This document shows, one piece after another, positions 10,593 through 36,022 of a DNA stretch of 64,000 nt; within the stretch, counting starts at the first letter, position 1, and each line of letters starts with the position of its first letter. The notes beneath the pieces are model-generated. The model was not told the DNA's origin, searched no databases, and worked only from the letters and a program-made list of their open reading frames with translations. Source of the stretch: Octopus vulgaris (taxonomy: Eukaryota); NCBI GenBank assembly GCA_951406725.2, contig OX597821.1, positions 118,606,001-118,670,000 of the forward strand, given 5' to 3'. A program made the translations under genes and the position numbers.

Positions 10593-10663
<71 letters not shown>

Positions 10664-10810
10664 GTTAAGTAATTGAGATTCTAGTGAATTCTAAAGAATT
10701 CACATGAATATGGTCCTTAACTAGGATGCACCGGATATCTATATGGTGTTAGCCATACGACAAGTGGGGTGATTATAAATAGGAAAAAAGCAACAAGAAT
10801 GGATTAAAAT

Positions 10811-10896
10811 CTCGGTACGATCGTTTCGTACGAGGACATCTTTAATAAGCTACAAAAAATGCAGTGAATACAGATGGCTCGTACTCGTCAGCCGAA
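10811..10896 (-). ncRNA. Type I hammerhead ribozyme (intact, mirror copy)
   Basis: Exact reverse complement of 11067-11152 in the left arm of the palindrome. Confidence 0.9.
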
Positions 10897-11066
10897 AAAA
10901 TATCAGAGAATTCCCAAACATCAAAAGGGGTAGATATAAAAGAGGTTGTAGGATTAACTGCATTGAAGAAAGTTCGATTCATGAATCGAACTTTCTTCAA
11001 TGCAGTTAATCCTACAACCTCTTTTATATCTACCCCTTTTGATGTTTGGGAATTCTCTGATATTTT

Positions 11067-11152
11067 TTCGGCTGACGAGTACGAGCCATCTGTATTCACT
11101 GCATTTTTTGTAGCTTATTAAAGATGTCCTCGTACGAAACGATCGTACCGAG
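11067..11152 (+). ncRNA. Type I hammerhead ribozyme (intact)
   Basis: TTCGG-CTGACGA-GTACGAG..(43 nt)..CTCGTAC-GAAA-CGATCG-TA|CCGAG; stems I-III pair; GUA cleavage predicted after 11147. Confidence 0.9.
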
Positions 11153-11180
11153 ATTTTAATCCATTCTTGTTGCTTTTTTC

Positions 11181-11215
<35 letters not shown>

Positions 11216-11382
11216 TAAAAAAATATTCAACGTAAACACGAAGTTTCTACCATTATAAACAAGGAGTTACAACACCTTTACTTGTGAGATTTTGCTGCAC
11301 TGGTAACTATTTATTTATTTTTCCGTGTTAATTGTTAACAAGGTAAAAATACATTTATCTATTTATATATATATATATATAT

Positions 11383-11992
11383 ATCACAATCAAGGAACGG
11401 CCATAATAGGCCATTCACCCACTAGAAATAACAGCCAAAAGCTTTAACCGCAAAATAACATTAATACCGTAAACCAGGAGAAAATTGAAAAACTTTTACC
11501 CTGTAATTTCTTAGACGATGCACCGTTTCATCTACCGTTTAATGGTAAACTAACCTGATTAAATTAAATCAAGCCAATCCACCATAGGCCCTTAGACTCA
11601 TCAGTAAGAAATAGCCAAATCGGAACAGATATTTTTCACGAGGCATTCCTCTTGCTACCTCGGCAATATCTGACCTAAAATTTTCAAATCGTCGCACTCG
11701 CGCCAAATTTATCGGCAGCAAATAAATATAAGCCACCGATTCCTTTACGGAACTAACCAGAAAATTCATAATTAATCAATATAGGGTGGCAAAAAAATTT
11801 TGTAGAATTCTTTTGCCACCAGCGGCCTAGTAAGAAAAAATTAAATAGTCATAAACCATTTTTACGTTCAACATCAAAATCAAGGAACGGCCATAATAGG
11901 CCATTCACCCACTAGAAATAACAGCCAAAAGCTTTAACCGCAAAATAACATTAATACCGTAAACCAGGAGAAAATTGAAAAACTTTTACCCT
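11383..11992 (-). mobile_element. (TA)n-flanked direct-repeat HHR element (490-nt period)
   Basis: 11388-11502 is identical to 11878-11992; one HHR lies between them; (TA)n on both sides. Confidence 0.78.
11506..11612 (-). ncRNA. Type I hammerhead ribozyme (intact)
   Basis: ATTTCTTA-CTGATGA-GTCTA..TAGAT-GAAA-CGGTGCATCG-TC|TAAGAAAT; 8-bp stem I; GUC cleavage triplet. Confidence 0.88.
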
Positions 11993-12008
11993 ATATATAT
12001 ATATATAT

Positions 12009-12472
12009 GACTAATGTACGATAAAATTTTTTTCCCGAAAAAAATTTTATCAATGGCCAGCATATCAAAAAATACCTTTAAGGGTCAAATTTATAAATAA
12101 TTTACAAAATAAGGGCAAAAGAAAAATTCTATTGCCAAATATGCCGAAAAAAGACCAAATTGTCAATAACCATTATAATTTATGCGTCTCGAAACAAACC
12201 GATAGAAATTTCTAAAAAATTTCTAAAAAATCCGTTATTACCGTATTGGTCCCAATTTCGGGGTTAATTCATAAGAATTTTATCGCTGAAGAGGGGAAAA
12301 TTCTTATGAATTAACCCCGGAATTGGGACCAATACGGTAATAACGGATTATTTTAGAAATTTCTATCGGTTTGTTTCGAGACGCATAAATTATAATGGTT
12401 ATTGACAATTTTGTCTTTTTTTCGGCATATTTGGCAATAGAATTTTTCTTTTGTCCTTATTTTGTAAATTAT
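12009..12472. mobile_element. (TA)n-flanked palindromic HHR element
   Basis: Arms 12097-12281 and 12297-12472 with few differences; 15-nt spacer contains CTGAAGA. Confidence 0.78.
12280..12340 (+). ncRNA. Type I hammerhead ribozyme with GAAA>GGAA core substitution
   Basis: TTATCG-CTGAAGA-GGGG..CCCC-GGAA-TTGGGACCAA-TA|CGGTAA; the inverted left arm retains GAAA at the equivalent position. Confidence 0.75.
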
Positions 12473-12841: not shown

Positions 12842-12889
<48 letters not shown>

Positions 12890-12891
12890 TA

Positions 12892-13212
12892 TATTAGAGA
12901 CAAAACCACTATTTTGCAAAACAAACAAGGAAAGACTTAATCAATACATAAAATTTTAATAAATAGTCAAAAAAACCGCCACTACAATTGTTTCTTGTCT
13001 TGATCGACAATCTTCAGGTGGACTTCCAATAAGTCAGTTTCAAATTATGACTATTTATTAAAATTTTATGTATTGATTAAGTCTTTCCTTGTTTGTTTTG
13101 CAAAATAGTGGTTTTGTCTCTAATAATATTTTATAATATTTTACTATAAAATTGGATTTAATCCTAAATCTGATTTTTTCCCTGTAAATTTGGATGTATT
13201 CCCTAATATTTA
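12892..13212. mobile_element. (TA)n-flanked inverted-repeat HHR element
   Basis: Perfect 78-bp arms 12892-12969 and 13048-13125 around an HHR; a related fragment lies at 36835-36948. Confidence 0.78.
12979..13021 (-). ncRNA. Minimal type I hammerhead ribozyme (intact)
   Basis: CCAC-CTGAAGA-TTGTC-GATCAA-GACAA-GAAA-CAATTG-TA|GTGG. Confidence 0.9.
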
Positions 13213-19140: not shown

Positions 19141-19629
19141 TTGGCACAAATGTCCATTTCACTGAATTGGTTGGCAATATTAACCAGCTCAAGACTATAT
19201 CCATTAATGACGGAACCAAAAGTGAAAAAATGTGGTCGGCCTAACAGTGGCACATGCCCCCACCTTTTGGAGGGTTCAGAGTTCCACTTTAAACAAGGTG
19301 AAATATTTAAGATTAAGTCAAATTTCGCCTGTGCCTCGGAAAACCTAATTTATGCCATTACCTGCTTAAGGTGCGGTAATCAGGATATTGGCCAAACAGG
19401 AATATCACTCCGTCGAAGAACCACTCTCCTCAAAGAACAAATCCACCACCCACAATACAGACAGATACAGGTCAGTGAACACATAGACAGGTGTGCTAGG
19501 ATCCTAAATCCTAATTTCCTAATTTTCCCCTTCTATCGATGTTCACAGAACACCTCAGTACAACAAAGAATGAATAAAGAGGCAACTTTCATCAATACGT
19601 ATCTTCCACAATTCAATATAAACACATAA
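19141..19629 (+). mobile_element. Penelope-like element GIY-YIG endonuclease fragment
   Basis: KCGRPNSGTCPHL...FACASENLIYAITCLRCGNQDIGQTG.SLRRR...VSEHIDRC...KEATFINTYLPQFN matches the PLE GIY-YIG pattern. Confidence 0.85.
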
Positions 19630-35593: not shown

Positions 35594-36022
35594 GATTCAA
35601 ATGAATATGGTACTTAACTTAGATGCACCAGAATCTTTTTATGGTGTTACCCATAAAATTATGTGGGGTGATTATAACCAAAAAATAAGCAACAAGAATG
35701 GATCAGTAGTTTAGTACAATTGTTTCATACTATAAATATTTTATTAAAGCTGTAAATATTACAGCAAATATAATGTCAAGTAATCTTCAGCTAAATCTCG
35801 TATAGGTTTTCCAAACATTTTAGAGAGTGTAAATATACTTATAAAGTTATAGATGTGAGCTCCAGGAACTTGAAGTAAGATTCCAAGCAGACCATATATG
35901 TTTTCCAACAATACAAAGTTATTAAATTATATTTGCTGTAATATTTGCAGCTTTAATAAAATGTCTATAGTATGAAACAAGTGTACTAATCTACCGATCC
36001 ATTCTTGTTGCTTATTTTTTGG

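What the first reader, a model, noticed from the sequence alone, without database searches (positions are those of the whole stretch)
11383..11992. 1.24-mer of a 490-nt HHR unit: footprint of reverse transcription from a circular RNA
Seen: 115 nt (11388-11502) recur identically 490 nt later, with a single intact GUC-cleaving HHR per period and (TA)n on both flanks. The ends do not coincide with the cleavage site (11514/11513). Inference: this circularly permuted, slightly-more-than-monomer form is what rolling reverse transcription of a 490-nt retrozyme-like circRNA would leave.
Basis: partly seen in the sequence, partly recalled or inferred. Interest (0 to 1): 0.75.

Follow-up and report, generated by a model that had tools for sequence, protein, structure and literature searches.

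The report
Ribozyme repeat copied from both ends
This is one short copy of a young, non-coding 490-base jumping repeat with a predicted self-cutting RNA motif, pasted into TA microsatellites; its relatives in the genome nearly all end at one of two fixed points and repeat one sequence variant per insertion, which likely records a Penelope-type enzyme copying a single, probably circular, RNA onto both sides of a DNA break.

Summary
In detail: 115 identical bases recur 490 bases apart, one type I hammerhead lies on the minus strand, and (TA)n flanks both ends. The copy belongs to an ORF-less family of about 2,800 units in this genome. Among 89 complete insertions, 138 of 143 RNA-sense 3' ends sit at two sites 105 nt apart (A, B). 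Of 55 head-to-head two-arm insertions, 50 have one A and one B end; none is AA or BB. That is the Penelope (PLE) 'tail' signature. Units within one insertion, across both arms, carry one haplotype, often with rare variants in every unit, and 278 of 278 cleavage junctions lack indels: a monomer, probably circular, was amplified during reverse transcription. No copy abuts a PLE ORF; no partner was identified; cleavage and circles are untested. It is a non-LTR retrozyme. The scan noted this family and anatomy before on other DNA.

The parts
11383..11992 (-). One-arm insertion of the 490-nt unit, 610 nt (1.24 units): RNA-sense 5' end at unit position 12, 3' end at position 131 (position 1 = first base after the predicted cut)
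11388..11502 (-). 115-nt stretch, unit positions 12-126, 3' copy
11878..11992 (-). 115-nt stretch, unit positions 12-126, 5' copy, identical
11506..11612 (-). Type I hammerhead: 8-bp stem I, core CUGAUGA 11604-11598, 5-bp stem II capped by a long hairpin (68 nt between core and GAAA), GAAA 11529-11526, short stem III with palindromic loop UGCA, GUC with predicted cut 11514/11513
   Evidence: conservation across subfamilies; cleavage predicted, not tested
11383..11388 (-). Start site A used by this copy (unit positions 126-131, ends in AT shared with the TA target); the same site in the internal unit is 11873
   Evidence: 65 of 143 3' ends at positions 120-140, most at 131
11768..11779 (-). Start site B (unit positions 225-236), internal in this copy
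   Evidence: 73 of 143 3' ends at positions 222-246; run contigs leave the unit into (AT)n at 11768
11768..11872 (-). 105-nt 'tail' between sites A and B, holding a 13-bp hairpin
   Evidence: equivalence to the PLE tail is inferred
11988..11996 (+). Possible 9-nt stub of an inverted B arm (matches unit positions 217-225), indistinguishable from junction plus TA target
   Evidence: L040 has the same junction with a clear 17-nt stub; L187 arm ends at position 225; ambiguous here
11364..11384 (.). (TA)n target, left
11993..12008 (.). (TA)n target, right

Best explanation
The stretch is one short copy of a dispersed, ORF-less 490-nt tandem repeat with a type I hammerhead fold (a non-LTR retrozyme), likely inserted by a Penelope-like reverse transcriptase/endonuclease that nicks both strands of a TA tract and starts DNA synthesis at two fixed sites of one, probably circular, monomer RNA. 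Steps: (1) arrays are transcribed and self-cleave to monomers (inferred from hammerhead conservation; shown for other retrozymes in PMC7229834); (2) monomers are ligated to circles (inferred); (3) a PLE enzyme makes a staggered cut of about 13-15 nt in AT-rich DNA (duplications shown; enzyme inferred); (4) one 3' end primes at site A and the other at site B on the same RNA (two sites, A+B pairing and shared haplotype shown; same molecule inferred); (5) each enzyme runs 0.1 to 9 turns (arm lengths shown; rolling inferred), and some stop at the hammerhead cut; (6) the two cDNA ends are joined head to head, or one arm is lost or reduced to a stub (shown). The window copy is an A arm of 1.24 turns with no B arm or a 9-nt stub.
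For: Two sites hold 138 of 143 3' ends; 50 of 55 two-arm insertions are A+B, 0 AA, 0 BB, 5 with one atypical end; 34 of 38 in the pattern-chosen set. Same sites in the ~90%-identical GUA subfamilies: of 20 loci, 12 two-arm A+B, 2 two-arm with one atypical end, none AA or BB, 2 more A arms with B stubs. TA on at least one flank in 85 of 89, both in 63; 13-15-nt duplications at non-TA sites (L140, L052, L060, L064, L090). An autonomous RT+GIY-YIG family in the same genome shows the same anatomy: TA targets, two 3' ends about 40 nt apart, one per arm in the 2 of 20 loci with an inverted arm. Arms agree at all diagnostic sites in 46 of 55 insertions against 13% for shuffled pairs. Subfamily variants are in all units 315 times, in one unit 42, mosaic 6. 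21 variants are fixed in only 1-2 insertions, touching 22 insertions (63 had enough double coverage). 278 of 278 matched cleavage junctions have no indel. 97 of 145 arms exceed one unit, the longest 4,604 nt. Hammerhead: position 7 takes all four bases, triplet GUC or GUA, paired changes in stems I, II, III and palindromic loop UGCA to UAUA. Sense strand folded as a circle z -5.1, antisense -2.0. PAc extends both strands and initiates internally at two sites (PMC11167929).
Against: No circular RNA, cleavage or strand-specific expression was shown; the runs are contigs of guessed or unknown type. No partner: no DNA likeness between the unit and 21 PLE 3' regions beyond shuffles except one 44-nt match in an old family that led nowhere, and the young PLE family has no hammerhead by my scan. 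17 mosaic variants (2 or more but not all units) exist, about 6 shared between arms at single units, and a 6-nt deletion is missing from one unit in L031 and in L037: a single monomer circle does not predict these; multimeric templates, template switches or assembly polishing do. 5' ends pile up at the cleavage site, so some templates were linear or opened. The active hammerhead fold is 3.9 kcal/mol above the local minimum. In PAc no strand difference in start site was seen, and the tail is 30-40 nt, not 105. 33 of 89 insertions show one arm only. All counts rest on one assembly; three diverged insertions and noisy arms in six loci were dropped before the counts.
Confidence: 0.6

Rival explanations
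1. Same PLE two-site priming, but the template is a linear, partly uncleaved multimer transcribed from a genomic array; no circle is needed, and this copy ran from site A almost to a cleaved 5' end.
For: 5' ends enriched at unit positions 490-15 (17 of 145; L046 has both arms ending exactly at position 1); the window copy ends at 12; mosaic and cross-arm single-unit variants; uncleaved RNA is the dominant PAc substrate in vitro (PMC11167929). For the window copy alone this is about as likely as a circle.
Against: Linear copying with 5' truncation only shortens arrays and cannot fix a new variant in every unit, yet variants fixed in only 1-2 insertions occur in 22 insertions, many in 3-7 units and both arms, and more than 25 haplotypes each form uniform arrays. 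In L046 the arms differ by 105 nt plus two whole units, so adjacent A and B sites on one linear RNA do not fit.
Confidence: 0.22
2. Short insertions are expanded later in DNA by unequal exchange or slippage, as satellites are (the route favoured in bioRxiv 10.64898/2026.07.22.740005).
For: Would homogenise units within an arm; a few mosaics are in adjacent units or alternate with period 2 (L046, L101, L143).
Against: Single-unit variants (277) far outnumber mosaics (17), a star-like pattern; both inverted arms are multimeric and share variants; within-insertion minority bases are only 0.25%.
Confidence: 0.07
3. The inverted arm is made by snap-back or self-priming on the first copy (self-priming model of PMC3846280), not by a second target-primed enzyme.
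For: Explains shared haplotypes and the occasional symmetrical junction (L046, L093, L119; neighbours at window 10774-11189).
Against: In 9 of 50 A+B insertions (and 4 of 11 GUA ones measured) neither arm is long enough to contain the other; both outer ends are RNA-sense 3' ends at fixed sites joined to the target.
Confidence: 0.05
4. The intermediate is a DNA circle (excised monomer) amplified by rolling-circle DNA synthesis, and the hammerhead is a passenger.
For: Would also give clonal arrays with seamless junctions.
Against: Hammerhead-specific conservation, strand-asymmetric folding, run-off ends at the RNA cut site, and the same end anatomy as an RT-encoding PLE family.
Confidence: 0.04

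Closest known systems
Metazoan non-LTR retrozymes (Cervera and de la Pena 2020, PMC7229834; Li, Clavereau and Pollet 2026, bioRxiv 10.64898/2026.07.22.740005)
   Same: Non-coding tandem unit with one type I hammerhead, low GC, target duplications longer than 4 bp, co-occurrence with PLEs; the rolling-RT life cycle was proposed there.
   Different: Unit of 490 nt (150-450 bp in the 2020 paper, 51-972 in the 2026 one); TA targeting, two fixed start sites, obligatory A+B inverted arms and per-insertion clonality are not described in the parts I read; circles are shown for coral, mussel and axolotl, not here.
Endonuclease-bearing Penelope-like elements and their 'tail' (Craig et al. 2021, PMC8557442; Arkhipova et al. 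2013, PMC3846280; Frangieh et al. 2024, PMC11167929)
   Same: Partial tandems, inverted 5'-truncated arm, optional extension on one end only, (TA)n preference, 8-15-nt duplications, internal initiation at two sites, extension of both strands.
   Different: No ORF; tail about 105 nt rather than 30-40; strict one-site-per-arm pairing, where PAc showed no strand difference in vitro; no sequence link to a PLE pLTR found.
Dimer-cleaving hammerheads of newt and axolotl satellite repeats (as described in PMC7229834)
   Same: Short stem III capped by a palindromic tetraloop.
   Different: Stem III has about 3 pairs here, stem II carries a 60-nt hairpin extension; dimer cleavage untested.
L1 twin priming (recalled, not from a call)
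   Same: Both target strands prime on one RNA and give an inverted 5' part.
   Different: Here both start sites are fixed and internal, there is no poly(A), and the arms overlap in sequence over several units.

Membership tests
Non-LTR retrozyme | Type I hammerhead in each unit | tested here: met
   (below Rfam gathering score; core conserved, stems covary)
Non-LTR retrozyme | Short tandem units, at least two consecutive hammerheads in some copies | tested here: met
   arrays of up to 9-10 units; the window copy itself has only one hammerhead
Non-LTR retrozyme | No protein coding | tested here: met
   longest ATG ORF 66 codons in a unit concatemer; 0 of 89 loci abut a PLE ORF
Non-LTR retrozyme | GC below 50%; target duplication longer than 4 bp | tested here: met
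   GC 0.354 in the 2-kb bin holding it; 13-15-nt duplications where the target is not pure TA
Non-LTR retrozyme | No LTR, PBS or PPT | not tested
   no LTR-type structure seen in the arm maps; PBS and PPT were not searched
Non-LTR retrozyme | Highly self-paired predicted circle | tested here: met
   -141.6 kcal/mol against -112.6 +/- 5.6 in 60 shuffles, 68% paired (natural monomer of L033)
Non-LTR retrozyme | Self-cleavage and accumulation as linear and circular monomer RNA | not testable with these tools
   only contigs of runs guessed to be RNA hold it
pLTR of an autonomous PLE | Attached to an RT plus GIY-YIG ORF | tested here: not met
   PLE protein hits in 9 of 89 loci, none contiguous: TA tracts, other repeats or an own duplication lie between
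pLTR of an autonomous PLE | Sequence likeness to a PLE terminal repeat in the genome | tested here: inconclusive
   none in 40 GIY-YIG loci or 21 3' regions; only a few of 6,136 first-look candidates were seen
PLE-mobilised element | Partial tandem plus inverted 5' arm, tail on one end only, AT-rich target | tested here: met
PLE-mobilised element | Used as template by a PLE enzyme | not testable with these tools
   needs biochemistry

The most novel reading that the evidence does not exclude
Each insertion records an asymmetric PLE dimer clamped on one RNA circle: its two subunits start at two fixed sites flanking a 105-nt structured tail, one on each strand of a staggered cut, and chase each other round the circle. 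This would be sequence-level proof of rolling reverse transcription of animal ribozyme circles and a general explanation of PLE inverted ends and one-sided tails; one run carries the family at a summed depth near a million, so the circles may also be among the most abundant RNAs of the animal.
Probability: 0.4. Interest if true: 0.75.

Novelty: new variant of a known kind. Interest (0 to 1): 0.5.

Why it matters
Who moves animal retrozymes, and whether their circles are the template, is proposed but unproven in the papers read; how PLEs make inverted ends and one-sided tails is also open. This family gives countable genomic rules (two start sites, strict A+B pairing, one haplotype per insertion, seamless junctions) and a defined 490-nt RNA with a young candidate enzyme family in the same genome, so both questions become testable in vitro. 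The single window copy adds little on its own.

Tried and rejected
(1) A base at unit position 127 first looked specific to terminal copies; one search showed it is the family norm and the window's internal unit has a rare change there, so the idea of a unique linear 3' end was dropped. (2) Arms that seemed to come from another subfamily (L059, L152, L153, L151) are riddled with deletions on one arm only and are more likely read errors through inverted repeats; not used as evidence for two templates. L032 is discordant and unexplained. (3) Partner search: no likeness to the young 781-codon PLE or other PLE ends; a 44-nt match near an old PLE's stop codon was followed to 20 loci and gave nothing. 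(4) Expression: no RNA holder listed on record; contigs of guessed-RNA runs cover the unit but cannot show strand, ends or circles; no back-joint beyond what tandem DNA gives. Runs X16 and X17 (type unknown) show summed depth 1e5-1.3e6 with about 99% GUA type at 11514, against 1,812 GUA to 968 GUC motifs in the genome, while X7 is all GUC there; suggestive of RNA but contig filters make it inconclusive. (5) Arm lengths of A and B do not correlate (rho 0.11, n 50). (6) Start sites are not simply the longest alternating AT runs (runs at 278 and 338 are unused). (7) Junction microhomology could be measured in only 35 two-arm junctions, 21 skipped; not used. (8) CpG enrichment did not separate fixed from single variants (3 of 21 against 25 of 186). 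(9) Look-ups of earlier notes near the place and by sequence found nothing.

Full report
Observation. The repeat is as described: 11388-11502 recurs exactly at 11878-11992. A type I hammerhead lies on the minus strand, with an 8-bp stem I, intact core, a 5-bp stem II capped by a long hairpin, a short stem III with the palindromic loop UGCA and a GUC whose predicted cut is 11514/11513. Rfam scores it 22 bits, E 0.012, below the gathering score. Both flanks are (TA)n. Below, unit position 1 is the base after the predicted cut; the window copy runs from position 12 (11992) through one hammerhead to position 131 (11383).

Family. The genome is 2.8 Gb; an earlier scan note calls the animal an octopus, which I did not test. 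The copy has many 98-100% relatives (145 matches from 40 of 787 candidates). Exact patterns give 422, 968 (GUC type), 1,812 (GUA type) and 2,801 hits, with 0 for reversed controls. I mapped 89 loci of the GUC group (the window, 38 from the similarity search, 50 from pattern hits on contigs 1-3), holding 92 insertions, 89 of them complete, and 20 GUA loci. This is a sample of roughly a tenth of the family.

Ends. RNA-sense 3' ends fall on two sites: 65 near position 131 (A), 73 near 231-236 (B), 5 elsewhere. Fifty-five insertions have two arms, head to head, with both outer ends being 3' ends; 50 are A+B, none AA or BB, 5 have one atypical end. In the pattern-chosen subset it is 34 of 38. The GUA loci repeat this (12 A+B, 2 with one atypical end, none AA or BB). 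Thirty-three insertions have one arm (12 A, 21 B); four of the A ones carry short inverted B stubs. Targets are TA-rich (85 of 89 on at least one side), and where the target is not pure TA a 13-15-nt duplication is visible. The sites are not just the longest AT alternations of the unit, so RNA structure or protein binding likely sets them.

This is the anatomy known for PLEs: partial tandems, an inverted 5' copy, and a 30-40-nt tail on one end only (PMC8557442, passages; PMC3846280, passages). The anole enzyme PAc nicks AT-rich DNA, extends both strands and initiates internally at two sites that bound the tail (PMC11167929, parts 1-2 of 4). A young RT+GIY-YIG family in this genome has the same TA targets and two ends about 40 nt apart, one per arm in the two loci with an inverted arm. 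It shares no DNA likeness with the unit, so it is a candidate, not an identified partner. No family copy abuts a PLE ORF: hits in 9 of 89 loci are separated by TA tracts, other repeats or an own duplication.

Template. Both arms of an insertion agree at all diagnostic sites in 46 of 55 cases, against 13% for shuffled pairs. Variants shared between insertions are in all units of an insertion 315 times, in one unit 42 times, mosaic 6 times. After dropping three diverged insertions and noisy arms in six loci, 21 variants are fixed in only one or two insertions, touching 22 insertions, often in 3-7 units and both arms. All 278 matched cleavage junctions keep their length. Arms reach 3,449 and 4,604 nt. 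Copying a linear multimer with 5' truncation cannot spread a new variant to every unit, so a monomer must often be amplified at or just before insertion; a covalent circle is the simplest template, as proposed in PMC7229834 (parts 2-4 of 6 read; its supplementary model figure was not seen). Snap-back is excluded for 9 of 50 A+B insertions, where neither arm can contain the other.

Against a circle-only model: 17 mosaic variants, some shared between arms at single units, and a 6-nt deletion absent from one unit in two arrays; many of these revert to the commoner allele, which polishing errors would also produce. 5' ends are enriched at positions 490-15 (17 of 145, 4.7 expected), strongly in the similarity-chosen set, which is biased that way, and weakly in the pattern-chosen set (7 of 97, p 0.04). 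L046 has both arms ending exactly at position 1. Some templates were therefore linear or were opened by their own ribozyme during copying.

The ribozyme looks selected as RNA: across subfamilies up to 10% apart the free core position takes all four bases, the triplet is GUC or GUA, stems I, II and III show paired changes, and the stem III loop changes from one palindrome to another in most. The monomer folded as a circle is far more stable than shuffles in the sense strand (z -5.1) than in antisense (z -2.0); the active fold is 3.9 kcal/mol above the local minimum; the longest ORF is 66 codons. Activity is not guaranteed: only 1 of 9 predicted Xenopus retrozymes cleaved in vitro (bioRxiv 10.64898/2026.07.22.740005, parts 1-3 of 5). 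Sequencing runs gave no firm evidence on expression.

The window copy. It is an A arm of 1.24 units. Its 3' end needs no circle, being the family's fixed start. Its 5' end lies 11 nt inside a cleavage position and shares a junction with L040, where a 17-nt B stub follows; here a 9-nt stub is possible but cannot be told from the TA target. The two passes over position 127 differ by one base, which the family's 0.25% background allows. Taken alone, the copy cannot distinguish a circle from a linear RNA with one uncleaved hammerhead.

Known and new. It meets every sequence-testable feature of a metazoan non-LTR retrozyme and fails the test for an ordinary pLTR. The link of retrozymes to PLEs is in print as co-occurrence and pLTR phylogeny. 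I found no paper describing fixed paired start sites or per-insertion clonality for retrozymes in six searches (listings only, apart from the five papers named); the library lacks most subscription journals and I read no supplements. My reading was written down before I looked at earlier scan notes; those notes report the same family and the same anatomy, also for ~360-nt families, on other DNA of this genome, which is not independent evidence.

Verdict. Real feature; non-LTR retrozyme with PLE insertion anatomy (about 0.9); two-site priming on one mostly circular monomer (about 0.6 overall). New variant of a known kind; interest 0.5, resting on the family, not on this copy.

Noticed in passing
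window 10661-11189: (TA)n-flanked near-perfect palindrome (208-nt arms) with a type I hammerhead in each arm (11072 +, 10891 -); one arm runs about 115 nt further than the other, the same one-sided tail in another family. A 74% relative lies at 35595-36017.
   Followed up: partly
window 12010-12470: Second (TA)n-flanked palindrome directly beside the finding, arms differing by about 90 nt; hammerhead-like core seen by eye near 12286, and found by the scan script in its relatives L079 and L121.
   Followed up: partly
window 12882-13135 and 38071 (-): Two more hammerhead motifs of other families (13017 -, 38071 -). About a dozen distinct hammerhead types turned up in the flanks of fetched loci.
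   Followed up: no
window 19177-19617 (+): C-terminal fragment of a PLE RT/GIY-YIG ORF, 53% identical to the young family.
   Followed up: no
L123:1744-6993 (G000:C6:133341500-133351400) and L120-L138: Young autonomous PLE family: 781-codon open frame (RT, cysteine linker, C-terminal GIY-YIG), an overlapping upstream frame of up to 479 codons, ~500-nt pLTR without a detectable hammerhead, TA targets, ~40-nt tail. The upstream ORF was not examined.
   Followed up: partly
runs X16, X17 laid on window 11383-11992: Summed contig depth up to 1.3 million, almost all GUA-type subfamily; run type unknown.
   Followed up: partly
L170-L189, L154: GUA-triplet subfamilies, 89-96% identical, 483-499-nt units, same A and B sites, arms up to 4,604 nt.
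   Followed up: yes
L059, L152, L153, L151: One arm of an inverted pair carries many small deletions; likely long-read error through hairpins, a caution for repeat annotation in this assembly.
   Followed up: partly
L045, L040, L149, L104, L175, L189: Apparent one-arm A insertions carry 9-18-nt inverted B stubs; no clear A stubs were seen on one-arm B insertions.
   Followed up: partly
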